A stretch of 64,000 bases of DNA from contig JAQGDQ010000457.1 of NCBI GenBank assembly GCA_030141605.1, positions 62,001 to 126,000 of the forward strand. Direction: 5' to 3'. Both the position numbers and the translations under genes were made by a program. Below, piece by piece: positions 41,352 to 63,481 of the stretch (positions are counted from its first letter, which is position 1; every line of letters starts with the position of its first letter). Under the pieces are notes generated by a model. The model did not search any database. It saw only the letters and a program-made list of their open reading frames with translations, and was not told the origin of the DNA. This stretch comes from Tubiluchus corallicola (taxonomy: Eukaryota > Animalia > Priapulida).

Positions 41352-42863
41352 ATTCCTTGCAACGAAGTGTGGACTTTTAGCCAAAGATATCCACAGCGTG
41401 AGCACTCCAGATCTTAGTCCAAATAGTCCGAATTCCTTGTAACGAAGTGTGGACTTTTAGCCAAAGATAGCCACAGCGTAAGTGAGCACTCCAGATCTTA
41501 ATCCAAATAGCTCAAATTCCTTGCAATGAAGTGTGGACTGTTAGCCAAAGATATCCACAGCGTAAGTGACCACTCCAGTACTTAATCCAAATAGTCCGAA
41601 TTCCTTGCAACGAAGTGTGGACTTTTAGCCAAAGATATCCACAGCGTAAGTGAGCACTCCAGATCTTAATCCAAATAGTCCAAATTCCTTGCAACGAAGT
41701 GTGGACTTTTAGCCAAAGATATCCACAGCGTAAGTGACCACTCCAGTACTTAATCCAAATAGTCTGAATTCCTTGCAACGAAGTATGGACTTTTAGCCAA
41801 AGATATCCACAGCGTGAGTGAGCACTCCAGATCTTAATCCAAATAGTCTGAATTCCTTGCAACGAAGTGTGGACTTTTAGCCAAAGATATCCACAGCGTA
41901 AGTGACCACTCCAGTACTTAATCCAAATAGTCTGAATTCCTTGCAACGAAGTGTGGACTTTTAGCCAAAGATATCCACAGCGTAAGTGACCACTCCAGAT
42001 CTTAATCCAAATAGTCTGAATTCCTTGCAACGAAGTATGGACTTTTAGCCAAAGATATCCACAGCGTAAGTGACCACTCCAGTACTTAATCCAAATAGTC
42101 TGAATTCCTTGCAACGAAGTGTGGACTTTTAGCCAAAGATATCCACAGCGTAAGTGACCACTCCAGATCTTAATCCAAATAGTCTGAATTCCTTGCAACG
42201 AAGTATGGACTTTTAGCCAAAGATATCCACAGCGTAAGTGAGCACTCCAGATCTTAATCCAAATAGTCCAAATTCCTTGCAACGAAGTGTGGACTTTTAG
42301 CCAAAGATATCCACAACGTAAGTGACCACTCCAGATCTTAATCCAAATAGTCCAAATTCCTTGCAACGAAGTATGGACTTTTAGCCAAAGATATCCACAG
42401 CGTAAGTGAGCACTCCAGATCTTAGTCCAAATAGTCCGAATTCCTTGTAACGAAGTGTGGACTTTTAGCCAAAGATAGCCACAGCGTAAGTGAGCACTCC
42501 AGATCTTAATCCAAATAGCTCAAATTCCTTGCAATGAAGTGTGGACTTTTAGCCAAAGATATCCACAGCGTAAGTGAGCACTCCAGTACTTAATCCAAAT
42601 AGTCTGAATTCCTTGCAACGAAGTATGGACTTTTAGCCAAAGATATCCACAGCGTGAGTGAGCACTCCAGATCTTAGTCCAAATAGTCCGATTTCCTTGC
42701 AATGAAATGTGGACTTTTAGCCAAAGGTATCCACAGCGTAAGTGACCACTCCAGATCTTAGTCCAATTAGTCCGAATTCCTTGCAATGAAGTGTGGACTT
42801 TTAGCCAAAGAAATCCACAGCATAGCTGACCACTCCAAATCTTAATCCAATTAGTCCGAATTC
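41352..42863. repeat. 84-bp minisatellite, about 18 copies, downstream of the TCEA1 stop
   Basis: Unit ATTCCTTGCAACGAAGTGTGGACTTTTAGCCAAAGATATCCACAGCGTAAGTGA(C/G)CACTCCAG(AT/TA)CTTAATCCAAATAGTC..; period 84 (e.g. 41601 to 41685). Confidence 0.96.
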
Positions 42864-42973
42864 TAACAGGATACAAAATTTCAAGCATTGTTTGAGTCAT
42901 TGTTTGCCATTTTACACATAAACGTGGTCCCCATTCAAATAATAAATACATTTTAGTCCAGCTCATAAATGCA

Positions 42974-45900
42974 CTAACAGAATTTCCATCTATGACCACA
43001 TTCTAAACAGAGAACAAAGGTTGTCATGGGTTCATCTGCACTTCGAGTTTGCACCTGCAAATAAAAAAAACAAAATATACAAAAGAAAACATAAATACAA
43101 AGAAACTCAGCACAAACTACCACTGGCGTCATATGAAGTGTAAATCTGTTAAAATCTTAGCCCACGCTGTAGAGCAGAGGACGAAAGACGTCTTAACTCG
43201 TTCGAAACCAAATTGCTAAGGCACGTTCTCGGCATTAGCTATTCGGATCACATCATGAACGAGGTCTACAGGAGTGCGGGTCTCGTCGACACATTGGCAG
43301 ACCACATCAAACGTCGCCGTCTGGAATATCTGGGGCACGTCGCTCGAATGGCCCGCTCCCACTTACCATTCGTCTCCATGTTCGAGCCGCAACAACACGC
43401 TGCGGCACGTGGAAGCGAAGCAGAGGAGGTCAACAAAAGCATTTCTGGCATCAAATCAAGCGCGATATTGTGTCTCCTCTTGGGCTGGACCGCTACCACC
43501 AAGTTTCCGACGACCTCACAGAGCTGCCGTCGTACTGCATAGACCGGAACGAGTGGCGCGTGCCTCCACCTGGTGGGGGCAGCAAGTAAGTAAGTAGTGT
43601 AGAGCAACACAAGAACAAGGATTTCTGTATGATATAAATTGCACATTTTGTGCTTCAGACTTTACGAGAACAGCCTCTTTTACAAGATCATGAAAAACCT
43701 GGCCAAGATTCACATTCTCGCCACATTACTCTCAAATCCTGTGCTGAAGCCTTCGCTTAGATATACATTCACATTCTCCATTTAAAAGGGACTAGCAAAA
43801 ATGCTCAGCATTGTAATTTAAATACAGAAAAAGTGACGTCTCCAATAAAACAAATAAGAAAAGTCAACTGTACAGGTAAAAGATGCGTTCATCAAGGATT
43901 TACCTGAGTGTACGTGCACTTATTCTTCCTACAGCGACCACATCTAAAGAGATCGGTGGGCGTTCCTGATGTTACTGCCATCTGGTGGTCATTGATTGCC
44001 TCTTTTGTGAACTTTTGCCGTAAAGATTTTAACTCATCGCTTGCCATTTCCTGTTCAGAAAATGAAGACTTTCTAAATCACACGCAAATACCTGTAACAT
44101 AGTTGCTAATAGATACCCAACCTCCTACTTACTAAATTAGCTGCCACAGTGACTAGTTGACACAGCTGTCTAGCCCGTGTGAATTCCATACGACTAACAA
44201 TTTTTTTATACATTGTGCACCAGAATCCAGCATTCAATTGAAGGAATCTGGTGCCCTCAATTGACCTTCATTTGCCTTAATCGCCTTCAAATGACCCACA
44301 TCGGAGCGTGGGTCATTATAAAGGTTAACCCTTGGAGATGCAATATTTAACTTGTAAAGGTATCTTAACAATGTTCAGATAACAATGTAAACACCCAGAA
44401 TTAGCATGGCAAAATCCTGATCATTCACTGACCAGCCTTGGCATGGCTTAATTTTGCTTGTAAAATAAGGGAGCATGATTACTCGCCTATAAAAACCTCA
44501 CCTAAACAGTCAGAATGTCATAACTTCCCTAGTGACAAAATAAGGGAGCATGATTACTCAACTGTAAAAACCTCACCTAAACAGTCAGAATGCCATAACT
44601 TCCCTAGAAAGGGAAGCCAGGAAACTCACTACCACATAACTGGTAACAAATAGCATTAAATTTAGGAAAGAACAAATTTAGACAAATATGAACTTCATGT
44701 TGCTTCCCTTAAGTTCACGATTCCAACGTCTCAAAATTCTTAATGAGAATTTTCGAAAAGAAAAACATAATAGCCATAGAAATTAGAAAATATTAGAAAG
44801 TGTTTAAGCACAGTATTACTTAATGGCACACCTTGGATAACCAGAGCATCTTAAGGGAATACAGAACTATGGAATCAGAAAATTACAAAGTTAGTACCTC
44901 TGCAGTCATGGTGGAAAACCGCTGAGGCTCAATAACACCGTTTAATATATTTGTCTTCAGATTAGGATTTTTTGAATCTTTCAGATTAGCAACTCGACTT
45001 CGGATTCGTGCTCGATATTTCATGTCCGTGTTACGAAACTCTTGGTAGATAAAGTCCTCTATTTGTGCTGCAAGATCTTCATGTGAAGCCGCTAAACTTT
45101 CAGGCTGAGCTGCAAAATGGCAAATGCAAAAAAATTAATTACACCAATTTTCGTGTATTGGCACAAACGTTTTAAATGCCAGTCTTATTTCAAATGTCAG
45201 AGCATAAGGTGCACCTTTTTTTAAAGTTATTATCATTTTACCCAGGGGTGTATCAAGATTCCACGATGTCCAATGAGAAGAGAAAACAATTACTTGTGGT
45301 GTATTAGAACCACTATTGACCTAGTTTCCAGGTAGTCACTATTAATTACATGTATTTGCAGAGCGCTCATGTTGTGTAATACCTTGCTCCTGTTCGTTAT
45401 GTGGCACTTACATAAACTCTGTGATCAGTAACTGCCTGTTGTGTGTTATAAAATGCGTCCTTTACATGGATATGAAAATATACACATTTTCCGAGGAGAA
45501 TAAGAACTTTTTCTAAAATGTGATGCCCCTCAAAGTTTGGGCAATGGCCTATTTTGGCGTATTGGTTAATATGCCGCTGATTATACCCAGTAATTGCCTG
45601 TCAGATACATTAAAACCCACACAATAAAGTGTATGTTTATAATAAATAAAGCTGTAAACAACCCAAAGTAATGTAGCCAAGTGGTCTACTTTGCAGACTG
45701 CATATGTGTTCAAGAGTTACAGTTTTGTATTCCCACAACTGCCTAAGTCAAGGTACGTATCCTATAGGTGTAAATAACAAATAATCGTGCTAATGTAGTA
45801 TATTAATGAGTGTGTCAACATAGCGCAATCTATTATCTTTCTTCCTACCATTTCCACTAACACATCCTTCTACCCTCCCTGTGTGATCTAACCTTTCTCC

Positions 45901-48900
45901 CAGTTCTTTTTTTGTTCACTCATCCATTCTTTTTTTAACGGGTTCACATGACAGTGGGCTTATACAAGCCTTTGCTTCTCTAGCCCACTGCAGTACAATT
46001 ATTGTTTTATGATAACGATAGTGTATGAAACCTAACAATTTAATACAGTAGACGTAATAATTTTGATGTCACTGTGTGCTTAATGTCGTTATATTGTACT
46101 GAAAGTGATAATACTAATAAAAAAAAAATGTTGTTAATTGCAAAAAAAGTCGGACGAGGGTCACACATAAATCCCTATATCTCCAGCACAGTGAAATGTA
46201 CTGATGAAATGTTGAGCACATATATGTAAGTTCAGGTACAGACCTATTTTGAAGTATGCCGTTAAAGGAGGTTATATATACTACACATTAGTTATGTTTT
46301 TGCAGATATCAAAAACAAAACCCAAAAAAGAAAGAAAATCAAACAGAAACTTCTGAAATTCAAACTCTACAGCTATGAAGGTCTTGGTATTGCCGGAGCT
46401 GGGCACTCGGGGATGAGCTCCCAGTGACATACAAAGTGGCTCCAAAAGCTTGTGCAACTCTACCACCTCTGCCAGACAAACTCCTACACTTTGCCTCCGC
46501 GTGGTGACACTGGTTTTACTAAATGAGCTAAGTGTGAAAGCGAGCTATTGGTGTTACAACCGATAAAAATGCTTGCGGGATGCCCACACTGTATCTCGAC
46601 ACTAGACGGAGGAGCTGCACAAGCAGCCAACGGCTAGAGGGCGGAGGAGGTCAAGTGACCCAACGGTCATGTGTAGAGGAGTAAACCTTCCAAATCAGGA
46701 GTGGAGCTCCGAAAGCGGACCAGTGCAGCATACTCACTGACTCCGGCAGCTCCTGCAGTTATTTTGGTGCCAAACGTATTGTTCTGCTTTCCTTTGGACT
46801 ACACCTGGGAGGAAGAGAGGGGGTTCCTGATGTCTGGGCAACTCAGGATCTCCATATACCTTGCCCAGGTGTGCGCCTTGGAGAGGCCACTCCAGTGGTT
46901 CAAGGATCACACTGCTCAGTCACAGTCGACGCAGCAGCTCTATCAATTTGATCAATAACTGACTCTCTTGGCGCTCAATCCATTGTCTTTCGAGACAGAA
47001 GGATGCCAACAACAACAACAACAACAACAGCTACGAAAGCATACTTTCAAAATATCAAGTGATACCTACGTTCAGTTTTTAATGCATTTTCCAGCATCTC
47101 TCTGCATTTTAACCGCAGGGAATCTCCGGTTGATAACGACAAGCCTTCACTTAAACTAGCAGTTGTTGTCTGACCCGATTGTGGTGCATTCTGGGAAGTG
47201 TTTTGACTGCTGTCCCGACTGTCTCCGTCTTCGGCTTCTTTTGCCAACGAAACCAAAGAAGCGGTTGAAGCAGAATTTGGTAATGAGTAGTTTGCTGGTT
47301 GTTGTGCTGCATTTCCTACAATAGGCAAAAGCACCCTGGTTATTAGTACGTGCAGGCACTGGCTATGTAACAATGAAAAAAGCATTTGCTGACAAGAAAC
47401 AAGAAAGTACGGTATAAGTAAGGCAAACAAAACAACATTGTACTGACCCCAATGAGCTAGACATTAGACAGGAGTGACTAAGAAAAATGGCCGACAAGCA
47501 ATGGAACATGCATGGTACATCTTACCTGCTGAAAGTAATCTCTTCCACTGTTTAATGAGGGCTTTTGCTAACGTGCATACATCATCTTCTGAGCTTGCTT
47601 TCCTGACAGAATTCACTGCCATACCTATTCTTGTTTTCTGTAAAATTTAAAACACCAATACAAAGTTTCAGCTCAGCTTTAGGTTAATAACAAACAGTCA
47701 TAACTTATTCTTACATAACATGGGGCATAAGTTATATATACAGTGTTCCCTCACTTATCGCGGATGTTCCGTTCCAGGCCCACCCGCGATAAGTGAATTT
47801 CCACAAAGTAGGGACGCTATACATATTTTAGTAGTTATACATTATTTCAAGTCTTTATAAACCCTCCCCACACTCTTATACATAATCTTTTCCCATTCCT
47901 TTAATAACTTTTCCCATACTGTACACGTATCTTTTAAAAACTTTACTTAAATGTTCATAAAAATGTTTTAAACTCTTAAACATAGATACGTAATTTTAAA
48001 AACTTGATACGGTGCATCACATTTATGCAAAATTCATCAAACCGTACAATACGTACTACGCATGTGCAAAAATACTTTAGACGGACTACCGTAAAAACCC
48101 ACGAAACAGCGAAAATACCGCGATAAATATTTTACATTAATATTTTTGAAAACCCGTGAAACAGCGAGTCTACGATAAACGAACCATGAAGTAGTGAGAG
48201 AACACTGTATATGACTATATAATATATTGCACATGCACAGATTTAACCCACAGTGCACCTTACAGGTAGAAGTTATAATAGAATAATATCCAGGATCCAA
48301 GTATCACATGTAGCAACACATAGCCCTTCTTAACTAAAGTTTATATCTTTACGTAACTGTAAGCTTTAAAATATACTTCTTAGCTGCAACTGAAAGTGTC
48401 GTACAGTGATTTTAATGAATTCAAGGACTACTTTTTTACTTAGCTGCAATTGAAAGTGCCGTACAGTGGTTTTAATGAATTCAAGGACTACTTTTTTACT
48501 TGGCTGCAATTGAAAGTGCCGTACAGTGCTTCTAATGAATTCAAGGACTACTTTTTTATTTAGCTGCAATTGAAAGTGCCGTACAGTGGTTTTAATGAAT
48601 TCAAGGACTACTTTTTTACTTGGCTGCAATTGAAAGTGCCGTACAGTGCTCCTAATGAATTCAAGGACTACTTTTTTATTTAGCTGCAATTGAAAGTGCC
48701 GTACAGTGCTCCTAATGAATTCAAGGACTACTTTTTTAAAGAAGCAGATGCAACATTTTTGTCTCTAATTAAAAAAATACATTATAAGATTCACATTCGA
48801 GTACAATGATATGCCTGTTAAAATTTTTACGTTAAAATAGCCTTACAATTATGAAGTCAAATTTCGCACTTACTGTTTCAACTAAATAAGCAACCTTTCT

Positions 48901-50443
48901 GCAGCATTCGTAACTGATAAGACCTAACTGCCCATGTTAAACTGCCTTCGGACCTTCAGGCTGCAGGTATAGTTACTTCACAATAGCACTGCTAATTGCA
49001 AATAAAAAAATTGTCTAGCTACTTTATATGCAAAAGAAAAAACCTGTAGGATTTCTAGTGTAATTGGTAATCCTTGCAAAGCCTTCAGCAAATCCAAGGT
49101 GCCATCCTAAAAAACCCAGAACAACATTTCATCAAATTAGTCATCTAATATACAAATAGTATATAGGCCAAATTTACGCAAATTTATAATGTAGGTCCCA
49201 TTCTAGTTATAAAAGATAACTAACCAATTGTAAAAAAAGGGTTTTGTAGCCTTGTTGTACTTAATTAGGGTTACCATATTGTCTGAGTTGAAAAAGAGGA
49301 CACTTTTTCGCATACTTGTAAGTAGGCAAAAATGACCAGTCTAGGGTCTATTAAAACAATGTGTGCATCGCTTACTTTTGTTCAGTTAATATGTACACAA
49401 AGTTTTTACAAGGGTTGCATTTTGAGATGTTAGCAACATCTTGTACTGAAAATTAACGAGCTTTTCTTTGTCTCGTACTGTCGTACGCCTCTGCAGTTGG
49501 GAACGCCCGTACATACTTACCGATTGAGGCAAAACCCGGACAAACTGCCGGTTTTTTTGAAAACCCGTCCGGACAGAGGCCCAAAAAGAGGACGTGTCCG
49601 GGGAAACCCAGACGTATGGTAACCCTTTACTTAAACCAATAAGCCTCTTCTTTTGGTCAAATCTCAGCTTCAATAGAGAAGAAAAAAAGAGGAAAAAGGA
49701 AAGACTGACGTAGTTAGTAGACGACCAGTGCTGTCTAGCCTAGTGTTTCCAATAAATGTGATGTGCAATAAATAATAATTAAAGATGAACAAAAGTAAAC
49801 AGTACAGGCAAAGATGGAGAAGTTAAATTTTGAGGAATAATAGAATTCTAAGATTTGAGATCAATTTGGTCCAATCTTTCCCAAGTCGCCTTAGGTCGAC
49901 TTTCTCTGTAGCCTATTTACTAGCCTTTTCCATGTCACAAATCTACTTTGGATCAGAAGACGATCCAGGTCAACCAAAAAATGAACCTTTTCAAGTCGCC
50001 CAGTTGACTTTGGGCGATCGCAGGTGCTAAAACAATGCATTACCAAAATTTCAATAGACACATGATGCAGAAAAACACAAAAGAGTTAAATTTATTACTA
50101 AGTAATATACTCGTAAGTTAGTAATAACACCAAATGGTAGGCAAACTTGTTTGAGAAGTCTGAGGTCTAACCAATACTAGGCAATACATAGTCTTTGTGA
50201 GGGTCTCTCTTCATGTTTTTAAGCTGAAGTTTTTTTAGTTATTCTACTTTATCTAATCAAATCCCACAGATAAGCATAAACATTTCAGCAACATTCTTCT
50301 ATGCGTAAAGACTATTGCCATTCATTTCCATTTGAAAAATCACAGAAAATAACTTAAAAATATTCAATCCTTACAAAAGTTTTCCTTCCCACCATTTTGT
50401 CTAGTTTTTTGCCAATTCGCATAACATCATCTTCGCACCCCAT
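42974..50443 (-). CDS. TCEA1: Transcription elongation factor S-II (TFIIS)
   Basis: Exons 50375-50443 ([18 protein letters not shown]), 49044-49106, 47526-47637 (KTRIGMAVN...WKRLL), 47070-47315, 44898-45109 ([15 protein letters not shown]), 43904-44050 (EMAS...CGRC), 42974-43054 ([25 protein letters not shown]). The zinc ribbon and acidic DE hairpin are intact. Confidence 0.97.
43177..43595 (+). mobile_element. 5'-truncated RTE-clade LINE in the last TCEA1 intron
   Basis: [17 protein letters not shown]...[15 protein letters not shown]; (TAAG)n tail; TSD TGTAGAGCA. Confidence 0.75.
44462..44607. repeat. Two-copy tandem duplication (about 75 bp)
   Basis: AAAATAAGGGAGCATGATTACTC...CATAACTTCCCTAG occurs twice. 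Confidence 0.85.
46573..47029 (+). mobile_element. Same SINE body without the 5S head (possibly a different head at 46381-46572)
   Basis: Body from TTGCGGGATGCCCACACTG to GGATGCC(AAC)n matches the other copies; the sequence upstream is not 5S-like. Confidence 0.85.
47741..48207. mobile_element. Tigger/pogo-like MITE (partial sister copy at about 33208-33420)
   Basis: TIRs CAGTGTTCCCTCACTT / AGTAGTGAGAGAACACTG, TA flanks. Confidence 0.75.
48379..48737. repeat. 60-bp minisatellite x6 in a TCEA1 intron
   Basis: Unit TTAGCTGCAATTGAAAGTGCCGTACAGTGGTTTTAATGAATTCAAGGACTACTTTTTTAC. Confidence 0.95.
49266..49627. mobile_element. hAT-type MITE
   Basis: TIR TAGGGTTACCATA / TATGGTAACCCTT; 8-bp TSD TACTTAA(T/A). 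Confidence 0.78.
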
Positions 50444-50459
50444 TTAGCCAAATTTCAAT

Positions 50460-50760
50460 ACTAAGCAAATAAAAATAAATAATCACAAAAGAACAACTTT
50501 TTACAGCACTTATAATAAGCAAAGTGTGCTAAAATGGCGTAACAACAACTGAGACCAATGAACGTGCAGCTCGGTAGTTGGTGTCGCGGTGCGGGGCGAT
50601 ACATGTACTGTATTTCCCTGGCGGTGAATTTGTGAAAATTTTTCAATGTTTTTTCGTGAACTTGAATATAAGAATAATAAAAGTTCATGATAATTATTTT
50701 AATTATTCGCTGCGCTTAGGTAAACATACTAAGGCGTTGGAACGCCTTTGCAGGTTAGAT
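50460..50760. promoter_or_regulatory. Putative bidirectional promoter between TCEA1 and CCM2/ALPH
   Basis: CpG-rich patch immediately upstream of the TCEA1 ATG, with YY1-like AAAATGGCG (50531) and GC box GCGGGGCG (50591); divergent genes on either side. Confidence 0.5.
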
Positions 50761-51502
50761 AGTTTTTGGAAATTGTGCATAAAAAGTTAGGCTTAACCTG
50801 AGAAGTGTAGCGTGTTAGGTATACCTTGTGTTGGGCGCCGAGTAATCCACTAGCCGAAGTAGGACAATTGGCGTACATGGGCTAGCCCAAGTAGGACGTG
50901 TCGTACATGGGCTGCCCAAGTAGGGCACTAGAGACAGGTCGCGAATTGAGTTTTTAAGCTTACTGCACCGTCCGCTGCCCTTGTTTATGTAATAATAATA
51001 ACAATTAAAAACGTCATTACACGCTCAATAATTTATTATACACATCTGATAAAATAAAAGAATATAGATTTAGATATACACACCCAATATATATACACAT
51101 ACATATATACATATACTCATGCAGACGTGTATATATAACCACACACACTCATGCACATATACACATATGTACAAGAAGAAATTGTTTAATGCATCACATG
51201 TAGAAGATTGACAGCAGTGCAAATAATTGTACCTGTGTTTGTTGTTCTTCTGCCATTGCTGCTTTCTACTGCTAGTGAGCAATGCTTTATTGAATGATAA
51301 TCATAAATGGTAACGACTATCAATGAGAAAGAAAACAAGACAGTCAAGATGGTAGTTAGTAATTAAGAAAGAAGAAGAGATGATGAAAAGAAGAAAAAAG
51401 ATCTCAAGTTTATAAAGAAACAAATTTCTGGTAGCAGCTTCATTTTCATAGCTACTGTACTTTCTTGTTGGCCAAGTCATTTTTAAAGTTCATCTGTAAC
51501 TT

Positions 51503-51875
51503 TATTGTGTTTTGTTTCTCTCGGAAGGCTCGTAGAGAAAACCAGAAAACACGCCGTCAAATAAAACTAGTTTATTAAGCGAGAATTCTACAACACAAAA
51601 GTATGAAGGAATGCGAAATGAGTACAGTAAACGTGAAAATCTGGAAAACGTTTAAGTGTATTTGAAAATGTAAGTATACAAGAGAATGTGTAAGTATACG
51701 TCTGTGCGAGATCTGCGTGTTCCCTTGTTAGCGGCCTGCTTTGCCTTATATAGCGTACCCAAGAAGCTTCCAGAAGTTTTGTACTAGAACATTCCACACG
51801 GTAAGACGATCATTCCAACGGAACATTCTACAATGTTCTATGTAATTTTAATAGATGCCACCGATCTCCTCAACA
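51503..51875 (-). mobile_element. Solo LTR, second copy
   Basis: Homologous to 5545-5909; perfect 5-bp TSD AACTT. Confidence 0.82.
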
Positions 51876-52657
51876 AACTTCAGTGGGTAAAATCAGTAAC
51901 TTGCAAAGTCAGTCTGTTAGCAATGTTCTTTGTAGTTCTTGAGTTCAAGTTTTAAGTAGTCTTAAGGCTCAAAGGTATTTTTTAGGTCATTCACAACTCC
52001 AGTCTGAGTCTGAGTCCAGACTGATTTGAGTTGGATACTCTGCTTCCTAGTTTTTATCGCTTGATCTACTCTGAAGGGTTTTAAACCATAATTTGTTGGA
52101 TTTGGTTTTGCATTCCTATAAAGTACTAGCAGTTTAATAGAGCTGTGAAATGCTTCATTTAACCTACCGAGTTTGTTAATAATATGTCCAATGCTTGATC
52201 TACATGAGACTTGTTCCGCTCTTGTATTTTGCGTATATATTTATGTCTTTTGCAGCATGTTCATCTGTTCAATAATATGTTCATTGCTCACATTGCTTAG
52301 ATCTAAGTCAAACCCACCCACCCGCTTTGCTTTTTTTTGTAGATTTTTGCAGTGTGTTTTTCTGTTTGTTATTTCTTCGTTTAGTAAAATCCGGTATACT
52401 ACTGTACACATTACTTTATTTTTTCCATGTAAGTTTGTAGTTTGTATGGATTTGCATAGATTTGTATGTTTTAAAGTTCACGTAAGGTTTTGTAAAACAG
52501 CAAATGAATGTGGAGAAAAATCTTTTTATTTTGATTTTGTAGGTTATGTTTCACCATCCTTGCAAAGACTCCCCAAACTACCGTATACAATGATTTTGAG
52601 GACTTTTAAATCATAAAATCAATACAGAAACCGATGGGATAAATCAGAACACAAAAC

Positions 52658-55600
52658 ATGCAACAACTTGGAATGGAACGGAAGCATTTGCGCTCGTTTG
52701 ATCTAACGCCACCGGATTACCGGATTAATCCTCAAGCATTAACAGACGGATGTGTCGAAACAGAAATTCAGGTGTTACGTTGTGCTTTTAATTATGTAGT
52801 GCAGGGCCTTTCTCCTTTTAGGAACTTCTGTAAATAAGATTTCTGTATTCTTCAACAGTGAATTAACGATTTACTTGGCTTTGCAGCTATGTCACTGGTT
52901 TTGGCTGGGCTCTTGTCTTTCTTTTTTAGAAAGTCTGTGCCGTCACTTTCTAGTTCATTTTCGACAAAATCTGGCCTAGTACCACCACCACCAGTTTCGC
53001 ATGCAGTGGTGCCCGATCATGTGGTTACCAAGAAGAAATTGTTTGTCATCGGTGATGTCCATGGCTGCTTCGACGAGCTGAAAGAGCTGCTGCAAAAAAG
53101 TGGGGTGGAAAACAATACTTCCGTTGTTGTCATATTTGTGGGAGATTTGATTAATAAGGGACCAAAAAATCTAGACGTTGTGCAGTTCGTGATGAGCTTA
53201 GGGAAAGGTGCTTTAGCTGTGCGGGGCAATCACGACGAAGAGTCATTGCGCGAGTGGATGAAAATGACAAAAGATCCATCCTATGAGCTCCCCGAGCGTT
53301 ACCGATGGGTTGAAGAGTTGGGGCCTGATGAAGCCAACTTCTTGCTTAGCTTACCTTACACGTTACGAATTCCAGCTGCCGGAATCAGCGTAGTTCATGC
53401 TGGCTTAGTTCCAGGAAAATCAATAACTGAGAATAAACCATCTCACATAATGACCATGAGGAACTTGCTAGTGGGTGATTACTTTGGATATGATTATACG
53501 CCAACAAAGTCCATAACTGAAGGGTTGCCATGGGCGTCTTTATGGAGGGGACCAGAACACGTTTATTTTGGACATGATGCTAGAAGACGATTGCAGTTGT
53601 ATGAATTTGCTACTGGCTTAGATACCGGATGTGTCTATGGAGGAGAACTAACAGGAATTTTGCTAGACGAAAATGAAAAAACATTTTTTAGTGTCAAGTC
53701 CTTTAAAGAATATAAAGCTCCAAAACCACATAAGCAAGCATAATTTCAGTTTGTTGTTTTTTCTAATTTGCTTTTTTCTATGGGAGATGAAGCAAGCTAA
53801 CTAGTAAGTGTAGATTAGACTTCAAATGTAATGGTATTAAATGGTGTCAGCTTCTATGTCTTATCTGACCTTTTGATAGACTGTTTAGGGCTAGAAAACA
53901 CAAGCATAAAAAGATGTACATTCTTATTGTAGTTTCCTATTAAGTAATTGGTGCGATGCAGAGAATTATAAGATATAATCCGTAAGAAGTTCCTAGTAAC
54001 ATAAAAAGAACATTTTGCCAACTGTAAATAACAAACCTAAATTACATAACAGAGAATATTATTACCCCACTTTTACCCTACTCACCTAGTAGGGCAACAG
54101 CAGGTACCATTTTTAAAGTCTTAGTATGACTCAGACCTCAAAGGTGGAAAGGTCTGGTGTGAAAGTTTTTGGAAATCAGTTATTACTCAGCTTATGTAAA
54201 GCTGCCTTCACATTGTCTGTTGGCATCATGGCATGATAGCAAATATTGAAAAATGAAAACATTGAATTTCAGAAAGTTTTAGTATTTGTATTTTTCACAA
54301 AACGTGGACTGTAGTATTTGACATTTGTCATTTCATTTCCATATGTTTCACGACATTGAAAAATTATTTTTGTGCATAACAGCACAAAATGGAAGAAGGT
54401 GTGTTTTTGATGCAGTTTCTTGATGTATTTGAACTTTTCTTTGAGTTATAACATTCGTCTGGCATCTATAACACTCAAACAACAGGAAAAAATGATTCTT
54501 AAATCAATAAATTTTGCTTTAATTGACTTGTGGATGCAGATCTTTGGAACATTTTTGAATGAGAACCATGGACATTTTTTCTTACTTGTTTGATAGGTTA
54601 TGAGACAAACCTTAAGAAAAAAATTATGTTCTTTAATAATGTTGCATATTTTTGAATTTGCGTTTTGTCATACAATTTTGGTGCTTTTTGACATACTGTG
54701 GTTTTTTCAGAAGTACAGTAGACACAGATGTCTCTTATTATTTATATTGTTAATGTGTAAAATTGTCACATGTTGCATTTGATATACGATCTTAGCTTTA
54801 TGTAATTCAGCCGTGTAACACAAAGTTTAATCTTGTTTCAGTTTGCAGGCATTGTTCCAAATATTGCTATGCACTTAGATCCTACCAACAGAACAGACAT
54901 TCTAAAGTTTATTGACAAAGCAAAGGTATATTTCTATTGTAATGTAGTTTTGCTGTAAATTAACTGCTTAATCAAGCAGACAGTTTAATTGCCTAACAAG
55001 AGCCATCCAAATATAATACTTTTGCAATGTCGCTTACAAAGAAGAAGGATTGATTAGCTTTTTGCTTGCTTTACTACTTGATTCACTTAATTGCTGTCTT
55101 TAAGGTGACCTGAGGTGACCTTATCGTGGGTGACCTCGATAAGAGGGTGGCTGACCTCGATAACTTATAGTTCTTTCGCCACCCTTTCACCACTAATCAA
55201 TAATTACTTTTGCACTTTGTAATATTATTGTATGTTGTACAGATTTACAAATCTCTTAGTTATGTATTTTGCTATTTTAAAAATGGTGATAAATTAATAA
55301 ACTTACTTACTTACTTACTTACCTTAAAGAGAAATTTTTAATAAACTGATTTTTTAACTTAAAGACTGATGTTCTTGTTTTTTTTGTTGTAGAAGCAAAC
55401 TTTCTTGCCATATGAAACAACGTCGGAGCATCGAGCAGTTCTTAGCCTGAGCGCTTACAGTCTCATAATTTTGCGACGAAATCCGGCTGAGGTGACATCA
55501 TATGAATAAAATTTGTTTAAAGGAAAAGTTGTCGCTTTTACTTGAGCTAATTTAAACAAATGATAAAAATACTAGCGGCATCTCGTGGTTACTTACCGTT

Positions 55601-58600
55601 ATTATATTATCTACTGTACTTTGACCATAGCATAAATTCGACCGGCCACCATACTGGCCACCAATGTAACGATGAGCGGATGGTGCTGATACGCCGGTTG
55701 TCGCATAGTTGAGAGGAAAACATAAAAAACAGTAGTAAGAGCAAAATGACTGAATTCAGTAACATGCCAGACGTCTAGCCCATCGTGCTCCATGAGAGTT
55801 GTCATTGCGGAACAGGTGCTGAGATGGAAGACGCACCTGCCCGTCAGCCCACTGAACCAACGAGGCCATTCCATACCAGCTACTTATAGCTGCTATGCAA
55901 CGCTGATATGCAATGGCTTCGTAATGGATGAAACCATCACAATGTAGAGGGGGGAGGGTCGAAAATAAAGTGCATTTCGCCTTCGTAACAATATTTAGCT
56001 CTGTTATTATAGTATGGGGTGAGAGCAAAAGATGTGTGATCATCATGTGCACTTAGAGATTGAAGTTAGCGATGCTAAGCCTGGCTAGTAAATAAATGGG
56101 CAATTACAGAGTTACAAGCTCACTTCGCACGCTTTCTTGTTGAGGCTTGTGTTCCCCTCTGAATGTTACTGAGGTGCCTTTCCAGTTCAGTGTTTCATCT
56201 TGTACGATTACCTTGGTAATGAGCAAGGTTTTGGTCTTGCCACAACCATCCACATTAAGTTATGTGGTGGATCTCAGCTTACAGGTGCCACACTGTACGA
56301 TAAAATACTAATTTGTGTATCTATTTATGAGATTGTTAGTAAACATGGTTACCTAAACAGGCTCTTGATTAATTTTGCCGTAAGGTCTACATGCTGTGGT
56401 TTAGCTGCAAACTTTCATTTCGTTAGTTAAGCACTATCAACTCCTGGAGTAACTGTGTTGTTAACAGTGGTTAACAAAATGAAAAATCTTCTGTTAAGCC
56501 TTCTATACCTATCCACGTAAAACGCCCTAGATCTGTGAATGCATCTTTCTTTGTCTCGGGGGATACAATCCTTTCTTGGCAGTTTGGTGAAATGCCTTTT
56601 ATAACAATCACTTTTATTAAGCTGTTTAGAAGCCAGTTATCCAGGAGAAATGTATCTTATTAACCTTAAATAATAGTAAGAATGCGCACAAATATACTGC
56701 TAAAAACCAAAATTGCAAACTAAGAAAACTTTTACTTTGGAATTCTCTACCATTACAGGTTAAACAAATCAAGTCCCTATCAGCATTTAAAACAAAATTG
56801 AAATCACTAATATCAACCAGATATGAAATACCATCACACCAGTATGACAACATACACACTAATTCAGAATTCATATATCCACGGCCATATTAATTAAATC
56901 ATAGTTTTTTTTCATTTTTTTGTGCATAATTGTAAATATGTTTGATTTTATTCGTCGTTACTTTCCATTACTGCACAGTAGTTTAGATTGCACTGACGCA
57001 TTTGCCTTCAGCAGTGTAAGTTTTTATTAACTAACACTGATTGATCATCTCTGTAAAGTTTTTATCAGTGATTATAAATGTATTTTAATGGCAAATAAAG
57101 ATTATTATATATATATATATATATATAACTGAACTCTGGTGAATTCATGCCAGTTAGACATTTGTATAAAAACATTCATTCATTTTGCTCCAGCAATTGA
57201 TATTGGTTGTTGCAATTCATGAAGTAGCTGCAGTTTGCTACATAAGGGACGATGGCAACCATTTACTTGTACTGAAGATTGGTGATCCAGAGAATAACAA
57301 AGAAACATGTACGCTGGCTGTAATTTACTTAGAATCAAAGGTGAGCAGATTAGTCGTATCACTTTTGCTGCATTTCTTGTCTTGTTGTGTAAAAATGGCG
57401 GAATAGTTGTTGTCTCACCTCATCAATTATAACAGGTTTTGTCGTGAAAACTGACATTCTTCTTTGGTGAATGGTCAAGAAGTCCATTAGGTCAAGAAGG
57501 TCTGGCCAACTATCCAGCGAGGACTTGCCAAAATTTCTAAAAGAAAGGAAAAGCTGTGCTTCACTCATCTTTCCAAAACATTCCTGTTCCCATTTTTCAA
57601 TATAACAAAATGGAATATCTTAATTTTTTATCTGACGAAAATGTTGAGCTGTTAGATGTATGTAAGTATTTTGAACTTGCATTCATTGTTGTACTTGCTT
57701 TTGGGTGGGGGGGAGGTTTAATAACAGACATTGAAAGGTACCAGACTGAATTGTGCCCCTCATCCAGTGTTCATCCAGATTTGACAATGCTGACATGCTT
57801 AGTAGTTGCAGTTTTGGTTTGAGATCAGCTGCTTGGGTATATACCCTAACCCTTTACATGTTATTTGTTATTTGTTTGTTGCATATTTACCTGTCCTGTG
57901 CTGTTGGTACAATTCTGTGTATGAATTGTATTAACACATTATAAGCATATCAATTTAATGTCATTCATAACAATTAAATCTTTATTACAAGCAGTACTAA
58001 CTCTAATACAGTACTAACACTAATACATTGTAGCACAGCGCTTATAAAAATGTTCACCACTAACCAAAGGGCAGCTGACTAGATCACCAATTGGTCTTTC
58101 GCTGCCTTTTCTTCACATTTTTGTTTCGAAATTTATTGTATTATAACTGTGCGTGTGTTGCAAGATAAATAAAAAAGATTATTATTGTTGTTGTATGTGG
58201 AAGTTAGTGTTAATTTGTCTTTATAAAATTAGTTTTACAAAACACCAACTAATTGTGAAATGAGATTCACAGCCTCATGTTAAATTAGCCATTTGCATCT
58301 TCTTTTTTCATTGTAGTCGGCTGCTGAAGAGTTATGTGCATTAGTGAGGCAGTGTTTTGAATTAGTCTACACAGAAGCTGCTAGAACGTTTTTCGAAGAA
58401 AAGATCAAACAGGAAGGACGGGATGATACATCATTTGCTGCTAGTGGTGCCATCTATTATTATATTATCAATCTTTATAATATCAATCTATTATATTATT
58501 ATCTTATCAATCAATATTATATTATCAATCTTACATTTATCACATATTGTTTTCGTAGTTTTTAGTTCGCTTGTGATTTTTTTAGTTTGGAGATTTTGCA

Positions 58601-59159
58601 AGCAAGTAATAATTTTATATTTTTTTTATAATTTATAATTCATTGGGTGAAAGTACATTAACAAAATTATACGGTCGTTAACCACAAAGTACCAGAGAAA
58701 ACAAATATAAGTACAAGATGGTACCCAGCACATTACCAAACAAAAAACAAAACCAACATCAAACACTAATGTATGTCATAAATACAACTTCACACACACA
58801 TTCAACACACTAAAATTGATAACCAAGTTAACAATCCAGTTTTATAAATACAAAATTCTATAGTTTCCTCTTATTTACCTCTATATTACAAACATTTATT
58901 TATTGGGTTGCAAACAACTGTTAGTATTTCTAGATGTTTGCTCCCTATAAAAAACAAACATTTGTCAACATTGTTCGTATTAGTAAAACCGAGACATGCT
59001 TGAGATTTTAGTGAAGGAATTCTTTCTGTCAATTTTATATTTGTCGCAGTTCATTTAAAAATGTTGCTCATTTCTGTATCTGATCTTATGCATATATATA
59101 TATGCATAAGATCAGATACTGAATATATATATACATTTCTAACTAGATTTAGGTACCTA

Positions 59160-59206
<47 letters not shown>

Positions 59207-62200
59207 ATACTCGTTGAATAACAGAATGCTGTTAAGTTTATGTTGCCTTCCTGTTTCAATAGTTAAGGTATGTGAACTAATCTGGAATTTTGCAAAAGCT
59301 GTTTTAGCCCTTCTTGGAATTTTCTGCGCTATTAAATAATTTTCAAGCTCAAACTCAAATTCAATAAAGTGGCAGTGTTTTTGGCTTTTTTTTATTTGGA
59401 CCAATGAAGAAACTATAATTTATTTGATCTTTTAATGGTTCCATTTTTCTTGCAGAAGACTCTGTGTCTACCTCACATTCAAGAGCTTTGGGATTAGGTC
59501 CTTCCTTGTAAGTTTTCATGATTTTAGTTTACTGCTACTAAGCTTTCTTTAGTCATAGATATTCTGCGCAACAGATTCTGTGCGCGAAGTTTGACAAACA
59601 ATTTACACGATTTTGTCTCTCTAAACTAGTCACACTTTATATATATTTTTTACTTATTTTGAAGTTTATTTCAGCACACACACTAACGTTATATAAAAGG
59701 AGCAAATTACACTAAAATTTAAAAACACTATATGTCATGCACTATTAAAAGAACTACTAATATATACAAAAAAAATGATTTAAAATTTCATGGTGTAAGC
59801 TAAAAAGCTGCTGTTACTACATCAATAAGCTTGACCATCTCCTAAATATTCTGCTATATATAATGAAATTTGCACACTTGGTGATTCGTTGTCTTAAACT
59901 GAGTGATGCAGTAGTATTTAGAATGTTGTATGCTGTTTTGTGCACGTATTGTAGCATAACATTACATAACATAACATAAGCATAACATGTAGAAAACTTG
60001 TGAAGAGTAGTGTTGTAAGTGGTGCGGATCTTGGTTAAACTGCGTGCTTTGAAATTGTTTTATGTTAAACTACCATCTTATTTTTTTGTGTTTTTTTATT
60101 CTGCTATCGTGATATTTTGATATCGTGACCGATTCTAGCTGCATTGTTTGGTGCCATTGATTTAATTACAACCTATCTCTTAGATTCCAAAAATTTTCGT
60201 TCAGAGACTTCAACATTTTTCGGGTTGTTGTGGATCTGTGTGCTTAAGTTTGGTTTATTTAGCCGTTTTTGTATTTTCAGTATTACTGGCTCACAAGAAA
60301 ACATAAATCGTGTCAGTTTAGCTAGCCCTAGAGGACGTCGTGGTAGCAAAAGTGAAAGTGAATTAAGTGGCGGCGGTAACGAGGTTATCCATGATTACAT
60401 GAAACAGGTTTGCTCATATGTAATACTATATTTACTCTTATTTGTTTTTTGTTACTATAAATAAGATGAATGATACTGAAGCAGCATGGTTCTCAGATGG
60501 AAAATGAAAACCGCTTGTTAGAATTTCACACGTGTTCTAACGTTCTGATTATCTAAGTTTTATATCCGCTTGTAACTTATGCATGTTAACTTGTAAGTTA
60601 TGCATCTTCTTCCCAGCTTTTCCCTATTCGGGGTCGCCGTTGTGAATGAGTCTTCTCCACGCATTCCTGTTGTTGACCATCTCTTCAATTATGTCTTCAA
60701 TTTCCACATGATCTTCACCGACTCTTCTTTTCAGGTGTCCATACCATCGCAATCTTGCGAGGCGTCCACTACTTTTACTGTTCCTCTGATATTATTATCT
60801 AATTTTATCTCTTCTTGTTATTCCCACCATTCATCTCAACATCCTCATCTCCACCACACCCATTTTCTTCTCTTCGGTCTTCTTTAGAGAAGCTGCTTCC
60901 AGCCCATAGATTAGAGCGGGTCTGACCACTTCTTTGTGGACTTTCCCTTTAAGTCTCACCGACTCATTCATAGAAGGTTTTGGCGCAGTTTTTAAAGGCG
61001 GAGGCCCTTCCTGACCCTAACCCTCCCTATTTATCCGGGCTTGGGACCGGTACTGAGTTGGGCTGGCTTGCCCCCCCCCCCCCCAGTGGCTAGGTTTTAT
61101 GCATGTTAAATTATGGGTGTTTTATCATTTGTTGTCTACATTACAGAATTACATTTTATAATATTGCTTAATAAATAAGTCGATACCCTCACAAGTAAGT
61201 CATAGAACGTCTTTTGAATTCATCGTATTTGTGTTCCACCAAACAGAGGAATCTTGTCAAAACATCTTTGATATTGTATCTCATAAAGGCTTTTTAAACA
61301 GATTTTTTCTTTAGTTTGTCATTTTTCACTTGTGTTGTGTTTTGTTTCTCTCGGAAGGCTTGTAGAGAAAACCAGAAAACCCGCCGTCAAATTAAACTAG
61401 TTTATTAAGCGAGAATTCTAAACACAAAAGTATGAGGAACAAATTACTAAAGTGAATCTGGAAAACGTTTAGGTATTAAAATGTAAGTATACAGAGAATG
61501 TGTAGTGGCGTCCGTGTGAATCCGTGTGTCCTTCTCAGCGGCCTGCTTCGCCTTATATAGCGTGCTGAAGAAACTTCCAGAAGTTTTGTTCCAGAACATT
61601 CCAGACGGTAAGACGATCATTCCAACGGAACATTCTACAATGTTCTATGTAATTCTAATAGATGCCAGCAATCTCCACAACAACATGTGTTTATTTTAGT
61701 GAGCTTAATGGTTTATTAATTTTGTGATTTCTGTTTGCAGTTACATGCCAGAATGACCGGTCAAGAGTTGAGGCAGTTTGCAATCCTACTAAGGAGGTGG
61801 CATACGGACCTACCATTTGGTGAATTTCTGCAGAAAGTGTTCGAGTTGTACGGGCCAGATAGGAAATACTTGTTGCCAGGTACCTAGATCTAGTTAGAAA
61901 TGTCAATTATTTATACGGCATAAAATAAAATCACGACTGTAAGAGAGTAAGGACCAAAAGTGTGGATGTCTTTCTAAAGCAGTACTGCAAATATCAACTT
62001 GAAATGATTGTTAACTTGGGATAGAGGAGAGGGCAAATATATTTGTTTTGTGATTCAGCATTTGGGCTCCAGTGTCTTACAGATCTATTGTCACTGCTGA
62101 GAATGTTTAATTAGCAATGTACCACCCTTTTGCTGCAGTGCATTCACAGTTCATCCTATGACCAAGGCCCGAAAACTTGGTCAGCAGCATCAATAAAGGA

Positions 62201-63481
62201 AGGGTTCACTTGATGGACATCCTTGTATCATATCTTTGTGCTTAATATAGATTCTTAGCAAGGGTTCCCAAGTAACAAAAATGTGCATTTTCCTAGCAAA
62301 ATTTATTGTTTTATATGCTAATGTCATTAAGTGTTTATGTCATTAAGTAACTTTCCCTTGTTTGATTATTTTTATTTTACATCCTACAGCGAGTGAAGAA
62401 GTACAATTATTTACAATATGTTCAGAAACAAACATATTTCGTATGTTATTGAAAAATGCATTGAGGTCTTCGAGTTCAAGAATAACGTTGTTTATTTTTA
62501 CCTGTATTTGTTTTTCAATGTACTATGACAGGGGTGTGCAAACTGCAGCCCGCGGGCCACTTGCGGCCCGCCGAGAGAATTTGTGCGGCGCGCGAAGAGA
62601 TTTGTCAACCTAATGAAAGTGCGGCCCGAGCGATTAATTGAGTGTATCCAGCTGAAGTCCGTGCTACGATCCCAAAGATAGTGCGGGTAGTTTTTTCTAC
62701 TAGATCGGATGCCATTAACCCTTACAAGATGGTTGTAGCTTAATGTCACTGTACTACACAGATTGTGTGATACACATTACTAATATGCATTGTAATGAAA
62801 GTACCACTATCTGTCCTGAAAGTAGAAATATATGGTTTGTAATATAAATTTTAATAACTTCTAAAATAGTTTCTTGAGTGTAGTAGTAATGATGTACGCA
62901 GATCAGACGCAAAAAATCGTTATTAGGCCTTTCTGTACTTGGCTGCTTTATCAAACTGCATGTGGCCTGCAGGAATTGCGAGAAAGTTTAATGTGGCCCA
63001 GCTAGTCAGATAATTTGCACAACCCTGGACTATGATGTCTATTCAGTGAAGTATTATGTCTGAATATTGAACATCATTTGACATACAGTAGTAGACATCT
63101 GAGCAAGCAGTTAATAACGATATATGCACATTTTTTGTTATACATAATATTCTAAGATTATGATTTTTTGTTGTTAATTTCTCTGATAACTACATTCAGT
63201 GACGTGTGCCCGAATGTGAAGATTATCTTACTTTACCATGTTTTCACACGTATTACAGGCAGTTGGTATTGCGCAGACAGCCAGGAGGTCTATAACTCTT
63301 TCTGTATTCTGTTCTGTATTTAGCTTTTTATTTTGCAGAAATGCGACCCTTTATACCAGACAAGGATTGCCCTTACTTTGAGAATTTCTTGGAACGCATT
63401 GGTATTCGCAACAGTGACAGCAGTGGGTACCCTGTATACATTAAGCATGGTTCTCCTTCTAGGTACAGCGGTTCTGCATGA
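52658..63481 (+). CDS. CCM2: Cerebral cavernous malformations 2 protein (malcavernin) homolog; PTB domain plus harmonin-homology domain
   Basis: Exons 52658-52771, 54842-54925 ([17 protein letters not shown]), 55393-55491 (AVLSLSAY), 57194-57340 ([13 protein letters not shown]...LESK), 58317-58446 (AAEELC...VYTE), 59456-59507, 60281-60407 (SESELS...DYM), 61741-61879, 63339-63481 (MRPFIPDKD...FENFLE.IG). Collinear with vertebrate CCM2. The exact N-terminus is uncertain, and so is whether a further exon follows the possible donor at 63463. Confidence 0.93.
52889..53743 (+). CDS. ApaH-like phosphatase (ALPH) / bis(5'-nucleosyl)-tetraphosphatase-like calcineurin-type metallophosphoesterase; intronless CDS nested in a CCM2 intron
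   Basis: Uninterrupted 284-aa ORF with the full motif set [36 protein letters not shown]. The N-terminal extension is hydrophobic, then Ser/Lys-rich. Confidence 0.93.
   Translation: MSLVLAGLLSFFFRKSVPSLSSSFSTKSGLVPPPPVSHAVVPDHVVTKKKLFVIGDVHGCFDELKELLQKSGVENNTSVVVIFVGDLINKGPKNLDVVQFVMSLGKGALAVRGNHDEESLREWMKMTKDPSYELPERYRWVEELGPDEANFLLSLPYTLRIPAAGISVVHAGLVPGKSITENKPSHIMTMRNLLVGDYFGYDYTPTKSITEGLPWASLWRGPEHVYFGHDARRRLQLYEFATGLDTGCVYGGELTGILLDENEKTFFSVKSFKEYKAPKPHKQA
54014..54135 (-). mobile_element. tRNA SINE internal fragment
   Basis: ACTGTAAATAACAA...CAGGTACCATTTTTAAAGTC matches the body of the two full copies. Confidence 0.65.
58870..59355 (-). mobile_element. Decayed LINE ORF2 C-terminal remnant interrupted by (TA)n and a palindrome
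   Basis: [16 protein letters not shown] and NEQHF*MNCDKY..DR (zinc-knuckle region) motifs. Confidence 0.6.
60606..61096 (-). mobile_element. Second copy of the bipartite RTE element
   Basis: Reverse complement of 1549-2050 with the same internal junction; TSD TTATGCAT. Confidence 0.88.
61333..61682 (-). mobile_element. Solo LTR, third copy
   Basis: Homologous to the other two; TSD ACTTG/ACATG. Confidence 0.8.
62529..63027. mobile_element. hAT-Charlie-like MITE, second copy
   Basis: Reverse complement of 16977-17475; TSD (T/G)ACTATGA. Confidence 0.83.

What the first reader, a model, noticed from the sequence alone, without database searches (positions are those of the whole stretch)
52772..54841. 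Intronless ApaH-like phosphatase nested on the same strand inside the first coding intron of CCM2
Seen: the CCM2 exon ends at 52771 (CAG|GT) and CCM2 resumes at 54842. A complete 284-aa metallophosphoesterase ORF starts only 117 nt into this intron, on the same strand, directly after a good acceptor (TTACTTGGCTTTGCAG|CT-ATG, AG at 52885-52886). Splicing the phase-0 CCM2 exon to this acceptor is out of frame and stops quickly, so it is not a CCM2 domain. There is little room for a separate promoter. Established: nested genes are usually antisense to their host. Inference: one transcription unit yields two unrelated proteins by choosing between terminal exon/polyadenylation here and onward splicing to CCM2 (or by trans-splicing), perhaps after a retrocopy captured the CCM2 promoter.
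Basis: partly seen in the sequence, partly recalled or inferred. Interest (0 to 1): 0.85.

Follow-up and report, generated by a model that had tools for sequence, protein, structure and literature searches.

The report
Phosphatase gene hidden inside CCM2 intron
In a marine invertebrate, an intact single-exon gene for an ApaH-like phosphatase sits 117 bases inside the first coding intron of the unrelated scaffold gene CCM2, on the same strand, and is likely made from the CCM2 transcript as an alternative last exon, a layout already known from other genes such as the cholinergic locus.

Summary
The nesting is real. A close relative's spliced CCM2 protein joins 52771 to 54842 (333 of 338 residues match the model). 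A DNA contig bridges the donor and the phosphatase start. The 284-aa frame has all six ALPH motifs, lies in a spliced RNA run of a relative, and is under purifying selection (pN/pS about 0.29).

No read crossed the key junction, so the mechanism is inferred. Most likely (0.55) ALPH is an alternative terminal exon of the CCM2 unit, probably fed by an upstream non-coding exon; its own promoter is the main rival (0.25).

An ATG at 52750 would run in frame into ALPH. A retrocopy is not needed, because 3 of 3 animal-like genomic ALPH loci are intronless too, and none has CCM2 nearby.

Same-strand single-exon nested genes are common, and ChAT/VAChT and Su(var)3-9/eIF2gamma are close precedents. New member of a known kind.

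The parts
50375..50443 (-). First coding exon of TCEA1/TFIIS, head to head with CCM2 (2215 nt between start codons); likely a shared promoter region
   Evidence: sequence; Pfam TFIIS_M on a later exon; highest CpG o/e of the unique non-coding sequence at 50444-50720 (1.37)
52385..52428 (+). Candidate non-coding upstream exon ending at donor CAT|GTAAGT (52429); unverified
   Evidence: donor score 8.2; acceptor-like AGs at 52342, 52352, 52384; no RNA cover
52543..52771 (+). CCM2 exon with 5' UTR, three short upstream ORFs, start ATG 52658 and an off-frame ATG at 52750
   Evidence: acceptor score 11.6; X2 RNA contig 52595-52771 stops being laid at the donor; P0121 residues 1-38
52772..52886 (+). 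115-nt T-rich gap with three acceptor-like AGs (52799, 52821, 52886) and a branch-point-like TTAAC at 52863-52867
52889..53743 (+). Intronless ApaH-like phosphatase (ALPH) reading frame, 284 aa
   Evidence: Pfam Metallophos E 5.6e-16; animal homologues 41-53% identical; motifs; RNA contigs of a relative; pN/pS 0.29
53836..53841 (+). Candidate poly(A) signal ATTAAA with two UGUA motifs upstream
   Evidence: not tested
54506..54511 (+). Second candidate poly(A) signal AATAAA
   Evidence: not tested
54018..54122 (+). High-copy interspersed repeat fragment in the intron behind ALPH
   Evidence: X1 depth in the thousands, loose ends on both sides
54842..54925 (+). Next CCM2 coding exon
   Evidence: P0121 residues 39-66
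55393..63462 (+). Seven further CCM2 exons (55393-55491, 57194-57340, 58317-58446, 59456-59507, 60281-60407, 61741-61879, 63339-63462); the gene goes on beyond the window
   Evidence: model against P0121; three GT..AG joints in run X2

Best explanation
An intact, single-coding-exon ApaH-like phosphatase gene lies inside the first coding intron of CCM2 on the same strand, and is likely expressed as an alternative terminal exon of the CCM2 transcription unit. Polymerase starting at the CCM2 promoter would either splice past the phosphatase to 54842 (CCM2 mRNA), or splice into an acceptor in the 115-nt gap and polyadenylate near 53836 or 54506 (ALPH mRNA). I favour a non-coding upstream exon joined straight to 52887, skipping exon 52543-52771 (about 0.35 of the 0.55), because that mRNA has no upstream ATG. 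The other route keeps that exon (about 0.2) and needs leaky scanning to ATG 52750 or reinitiation. The protein keeps its own start and a hydrophobic, Ser/Thr-rich, acid-free N-terminus, so it is predicted to be imported into an organelle, probably mitochondria, and to cleave pyrophosphate bonds (dinucleoside polyphosphates or polyphosphate). The frame mismatch with CCM2 would keep that targeting signal at the N-terminus. The gene probably moved into an old CCM2 intron in this lineage and rides on a housekeeping promoter. Shown: nesting, intact frame, presence in a relative's RNA run, selection. Inferred: shared promoter, the splice, the poly(A) site, location, substrate.
For: Intron confirmed by P0121 and adjacency by an X1 contig. 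The acceptor 2 nt before the ATG scores like true acceptors, with a branch-point-like TTAAC 20 nt upstream and no AG between. The gap holds 3 acceptor-like sites against 0 or 1 in each of 62 tiles from the other seven CCM2 introns (criterion chosen after the fact). Exon 52543-52771 has a strong acceptor of its own (11.6), so an upstream exon is expected; candidate exon 52385-52428 joined to 52887 carries no upstream ATG. ATG 52889 aligns with the first Met of most of 22 homologues. ALPH and CCM2 contigs occur in the same spliced run X2. 11 synonymous against 12 non-synonymous changes over about 43 and 164 sites, binomial p 0.003. Human IVS2 precedes Y69 (PMC3960060, one passage), the column where this intron falls in alignment A2, so the host intron is old. 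Precedents.
Against: No contig or read crosses 52887 or shows an ALPH 5' or 3' end, and the upstream exon is a candidate only. About 2% of intronic AGs score as well, so an acceptor-like AG near an ATG can be chance. Both short introns in my models (114 nt, 52429-52542; 115 nt, 52772-52886) are shorter than the shortest of the 14 introns modelled here (210 nt). Through exon 52543-52771 the CCM2 frame overlaps the ALPH ATG by 91 nt, and ATG 52750 has a weak context. X2 is one study of a relative about 90% identical; it does not show that ALPH is nested there. No functional link between CCM2 and ALPH is known to me.
Confidence: 0.55

Rival explanations
1. Ordinary nested gene with its own promoter inside the CCM2 exon, the gap or the intron upstream; the AG before the ATG is chance or ends ALPH's own 5' UTR intron.
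For: No junction seen. Same-strand single-exon nested genes are common (PMC3814207). The coding part of exon 52543-52771 has CpG o/e 1.4 (8 CpG in 114 nt).
Against: The gap is T-rich like intron 3' ends and acceptor-rich rather than CpG-rich (o/e 0.56). A promoter would have to overlap a constrained CCM2 exon.
Confidence: 0.25
2. Operon-like unit: ALPH is cut out of the CCM2 pre-mRNA by spliced-leader trans-splicing at 52887.
For: An acceptor directly before the ATG is what trans-spliced genes show. It would remove the upstream-ATG problem. TCEA1 has a moderate acceptor-like AG 17 nt before its ATG (score 4.3).
Against: No leader-like loose end among those listed (both tables were cut). My searches showed no report of spliced leaders in priapulids: one search listed 3 papers, on other taxa by title, none read; PMC7986045 has no mention of 'priapul'. 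Cis donors are available upstream.
Confidence: 0.07
3. In-frame fusion: donor 52771 is spliced to the AG at 52932-52933, giving CCM2 residues 1-38 joined to ALPH from residue 16 on, without the hydrophobic N-terminus.
For: The join is in frame. The site follows a long pyrimidine run and scores 3.7, inside the range of true acceptors (2.1-16.3).
Against: A better AG lies 4 nt upstream (5.6) and is out of frame; 74 of 879 intronic AGs score as high. ALPH's own first Met is conserved. None of 165 proteins from the ALPH searches has a CCM2-like piece (these were mostly 156-497 aa).
Confidence: 0.05
4. Misassembly, contamination or a dead copy.
For: The stretch 53825-54841 is not bridged by any listed X1 contig (table cut). 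X1 may be the window's own source.
Against: One contig bridges the CCM2 donor and the ALPH ATG. All motifs are intact, selection is purifying, and the gene is in a relative's spliced run. GC3 matches CCM2 (0.40 and 0.38). All named proteins among the best 120 hits are from animals.
Confidence: 0.03

Closest known systems
Cholinergic locus, ChAT/VAChT (mammals, Drosophila, C. elegans); PMC3469465, passages read; its cited primary papers not read
   Same: A second gene lies in an early intron of the host on the same strand; in the precedent the two share a first exon.
   Different: There the shared exon is shown and the two proteins work in one pathway. Here the shared exon is inferred, the proteins are unrelated, and the layout was absent from the three other animal-like loci seen.
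Su(var)3-9/eIF2gamma fusion of insects; PMC1435931, abstract and sections 3 and 8 read
   Same: [quoted passage not shown]
   Different: Su(var)3-9 shares 80 in-frame residues with its host. Here the main acceptor is out of frame with CCM2 and ALPH keeps its own ATG. Su(var)3-9 is ascribed to retrotransposition, which is not needed here.
Eukaryotic ALPH family (yeast Ppn2, trypanosome ALPH1/ALPH2, holozoan ALPHs); PMC8220851, section 5 and passages read; nearest PDB sequence 2qjc (E 1.3e-39)
   Same: All six motifs, catalytic domain only, short N-terminus like the holozoan members (13 of 18 predicted mitochondrial in that paper).
   Different: Nothing unusual in the protein; only its genomic place differs. 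Activity and location are untested.
Same-strand nested genes of Drosophila; PMC3814207, passages read
   Same: Same strand, single exon, unrelated to the host.
   Different: Those are treated as separate transcription units; here only 117 nt separate the host exon from the start codon.

Membership tests
ALPH (ApaH-like phosphatase) | PPP motifs 1, 3 and 4 (GDxHG, GNH[ED], H[AG]G) | tested here: met
   GDVHG at 55, GNHD at 113, HAG at 170; definitions from PMC8220851
ALPH (ApaH-like phosphatase) | Motif 2 with the second Asp replaced by a neutral residue and Arg by Lys | tested here: met
   GDLINKG at 85
ALPH (ApaH-like phosphatase) | C-terminal motifs 5 and 6, typically 19 residues apart | tested here: met
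   VYFGH at 225 and LDTG at 244, 19 apart start to start
ALPH (ApaH-like phosphatase) | Pyrophosphatase, polyphosphatase or decapping activity; non-cytoplasmic location in animals | not testable with these tools
   N-terminus hydrophobic, 3 basic and 0 acidic residues in the first 35; no targeting predictor was run
Bacterial ApaH / PrpE equivalogs | Score above the NCBIfam cut-off | tested here: not met
   97.8 against 176, 66 against 222.85, 65.8 against 340 bits
Cholinergic-locus-type shared-first-exon gene pair | Second gene wholly inside an early intron of the host, same strand | tested here: met
Cholinergic-locus-type shared-first-exon gene pair | Both mRNAs carry a common first exon | tested here: inconclusive
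   no contig crosses 52887 in the two runs laid
Cholinergic-locus-type shared-first-exon gene pair | Nested mRNA ends at a poly(A) site inside the host intron | not testable with these tools
   only candidate signals at 53836 and 54506
Su(var)3-9/eIF2gamma-type fusion | Nested exon joined in frame to the host's N-terminal coding exons | tested here: not met
   out of frame at 52887; the in-frame AG at 52858 gives an immediate stop; only the weak AG at 52933 would fuse
Retrocopy | Introns lost relative to orthologues | tested here: not met
   3 of 3 animal-like genomic loci (L001-L003) also have an unbroken frame; L002 is from a compact genome and says little
Retrocopy | Poly(A) remnant or target-site duplication | tested here: not met
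   longest A run behind the stop is 7 nt; no flanking direct repeat; an old event would have lost both
Spliced-leader operon | Leader joined at the acceptor; SL RNA genes in the genome | not testable with these tools
   no genome held; only contigs were available

The most novel reading that the evidence does not exclude
Splice choice at one CCM2 donor switches the enzyme's address: besides the organelle-targeted ALPH, a join to the in-frame AG at 52933 replaces the targeting peptide with CCM2's first 38 residues and yields a cytosolic ALPH able to cleave mRNA caps, in an animal.
Probability: 0.05. Interest if true: 0.7.

Novelty: new member of a known kind. Interest (0 to 1): 0.35.

Why it matters
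If confirmed, it adds a case of two unrelated proteins made from one promoter by a choice of last exon, in an animal group with little transcript data. It would show how a gene can settle into a host intron while keeping its own N-terminal targeting signal, because it stays out of frame. It also warns annotators, who may merge or miss such genes. It changes no general rule, and the enzyme is an ordinary animal ALPH.

Tried and rejected
No whole genome is held, so paralogues, a parent copy and SL RNA genes could not be searched. The run search listed no holder on record as RNA; X2 came in by species label and proved spliced when laid. X2 has no cover over 52772-53117, over 54842-54925 or upstream of 52595, which shows nothing either way. 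Its contig over the CCM2 exon has 4 unlaid letters after the donor that the tool did not print.

A search of cluster representatives with the ALPH N-terminus (75 aa) found no close fragment or fused form (38 hits, none under 1e-10). The exact ALPH sequence is not in the protein collection. The CCM2 search returned 49 proteins and no named priapulid, so nesting in Priapulus could not be checked by scaffold length. Five CCM2 proteins gave no tblastn hit (E up to 0.01) in 80 metagenome loci, of which only 3 are animal-like.

I suspected that the exon's 5' UTR is decayed CCM2 coding sequence; a shuffle test did not support it (p 0.28). Rfam gave only sub-threshold microRNA matches on a dinucleotide repeat. 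Both trees were quick searches: the window groups with Priapulus and P0001 at support 78, not shown and not rejected. The splice matrices had a misplaced acceptor and a misplaced donor; acceptor scores come from the corrected, donor scores. The ESM Atlas added nothing beyond the family. No structure was predicted.

Full report
Observation. The coordinates are right. A CCM2 exon ends at 52771, a 284-aa frame runs 52889-53743, and CCM2 resumes at 54842. A search with a later CCM2 exon returned P0121, a 407-aa protein from a 1386-nt Logan contig. It starts at the ATG matching 52658 and joins 52771 to 54842; a nine-exon model matches it at 333 of 338 residues. So the phosphatase lies in a real intron. 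DNA run X1 has a contig over 52645-52930 with one other letter (286 of 305 letters laid), bridging donor and ATG, and another over 53476-53824. The rest of the intron is not bridged in the listed pieces, and X1 may be the window's own source.

The protein. It matches Pfam Metallophos and falls below the NCBIfam cut-offs for bacterial ApaH and PrpE. All six ALPH motifs defined in PMC8220851 are present, including the diagnostic motif 2 and the 19-residue spacing of motifs 5 and 6. The best hits are P0001 (unnamed, 53%) and Priapulus caudatus (47%); all named proteins among the best 120 are from animals. Quick trees put it nearest those two without firm support. Its first Met aligns with that of most of 22 homologues. 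The N-terminus is hydrophobic, Ser/Thr-rich and acid-free; 13 of 18 holozoan ALPHs are predicted mitochondrial in PMC8220851. Location and substrate are inferred.

Expression and selection. Run X2, labelled RNA by guess, shows three GT..AG joints at CCM2 introns, so it is spliced RNA. It comes from a relative about 90% identical in exons. It holds contigs over CCM2 52595-52771 and over ALPH 53118-53298 and 53374-53525. Of the 38 differences in the two ALPH contigs, 23 were listed (those away from contig ends): 11 synonymous and 12 non-synonymous over about 43 and 164 sites, pN/pS 0.29, p 0.003. The five listed changes in the CCM2 coding part are all synonymous. This is one study, DNA carry-over cannot be excluded for an intronless frame, and no contig crosses 52887.

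Splice anatomy. On a matrix from 14 introns of CCM2 and TCEA1, the AG at 52886 scores 6.9 (true median 6.5; 18 of 879 intronic AGs reach it), with TTAAC 20 nt upstream. The 115-nt gap has two more such sites (52799, 52821); 62 tiles of the other CCM2 introns have at most one each, by a criterion chosen afterwards. The exon before the gap begins at a strong acceptor (52542, score 11.6), and a good donor lies at 52429, so at least one upstream exon is likely. If exon 52543-52771 is joined to 52887, five out-of-frame ATGs precede ALPH, the CCM2 frame overlaps its ATG by 91 nt, and only a weak ATG at 52750 is in frame (292 aa). If the candidate exon 52385-52428 is joined to 52887, no ATG precedes it. 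I therefore favour an upstream non-coding exon that feeds either path. Against this, both short introns (114 and 115 nt) are shorter than any of the 14 modelled here (minimum 210 nt). Candidate poly(A) signals lie at 53836 and 54506. A weak in-frame AG at 52933 would fuse CCM2 1-38 to ALPH from residue 16; a better out-of-frame AG lies 4 nt before it.

Origin. The host intron is old: human IVS2 precedes Y69 (PMC3960060, one passage), which aligns with this junction. A metagenome scan (4 of 64 parts read) gave 80 loci. Three are animal-like by tree (L001-L003), all with an unbroken ALPH frame, and none of the 80 has a CCM2 match. L001 has only 0.24 kb upstream, and L002 is from a compact genome. 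So an intronless frame looks usual for animal ALPH, and the nesting is probably lineage-specific. There is no poly(A) remnant or flanking repeat. How the gene moved is unknown; a retrocopy is not required.

Comparison with what is known. ChAT and VAChT share a first exon, with VAChT in the first ChAT intron, in mammals, flies and worms (PMC3469465, passage). From recall, not read: the Drosophila shared exon also carries upstream start codons. Su(var)3-9 is one large exon in a conserved eIF2gamma intron, used by 3' alternative splicing, but in frame (PMC1435931). In Drosophila 71% of nested genes are antisense, and 73% of same-strand ones are single-exon (PMC3814207); PMC4394429 gives two-thirds antisense (passage). 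One search for CCM2, nested, intron, invertebrate and phosphatase together found 0 papers; one search listed 3 unrelated titles. The library lacks most subscription journals.

Earlier notes. None covers this place or sequence. An unchecked note reports an intronless CEP290 on the same strand inside a PLPBP intron of this genome, and others call the animal priapulid-like. The latter agrees with my ALPH hits, though CCM2's best named hits are nemerteans and no named priapulid CCM2 was returned.

Verdict. A real, selected, ordinary ALPH in an unusual but precedented place. Shared transcription unit 0.55, own promoter 0.25, trans-splicing 0.07, in-frame fusion 0.05, artefact 0.03; the remaining 0.05 is unassigned. 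Interest 0.35.

Noticed in passing
window 52634-52642: A two-codon upstream ORF ends 15 nt before the CCM2 start. The listed differences in the relative X2 leave its start and stop intact and change its second codon synonymously, so it may be a kept regulatory uORF.
   Followed up: partly
window 52658: CCM2 here and P0121 start later than most homologues, lacking up to about 30 N-terminal residues; an in-frame stop at 52640 lies upstream.
   Followed up: partly
window 63339-63481: The last CCM2 exon in the window has several possible ends: P0121 leaves it at 63462, an X2 contig leaves it near 63420, and read-through reaches a stop at about 63481. Possible alternative C-termini.
   Followed up: no
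window 50444-50620 (-): The TCEA1 5' region has Inr-like and YY1-like motifs (labels recalled) and an acceptor-like AG 17 nt before the ATG with no clear donor.
   Followed up: partly
window 51500-51860 and 61330-61660: Two copies of a high-copy interspersed element about 350 nt long, one between TCEA1 and CCM2, one in a CCM2 intron.
   Followed up: no
window 48380-48760 and 41500-43000: Tandem arrays: about six 60-nt units in a TCEA1 intron, each with an acceptor-like AG, and a longer array behind TCEA1.
   Followed up: no
window 1-34500: Exons that look like Mediator subunit MED23 (minus strand) and a myosin regulatory light chain (34221, plus strand); names recalled from the translations.
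   Followed up: no
P0143 (Capitella CCM2 model): A 72-residue insertion sits exactly at the host-intron position; it has no BLAST match to ALPH proteins and is probably a gene-model error at the same intron.
   Followed up: partly
PMC8220851 section 7 passage: Two animal ALPH models are fused to unrelated domains (Pomacea, Leptotrombidium); these may be other cases of ALPH lying in or against a neighbouring gene.
   Followed up: no
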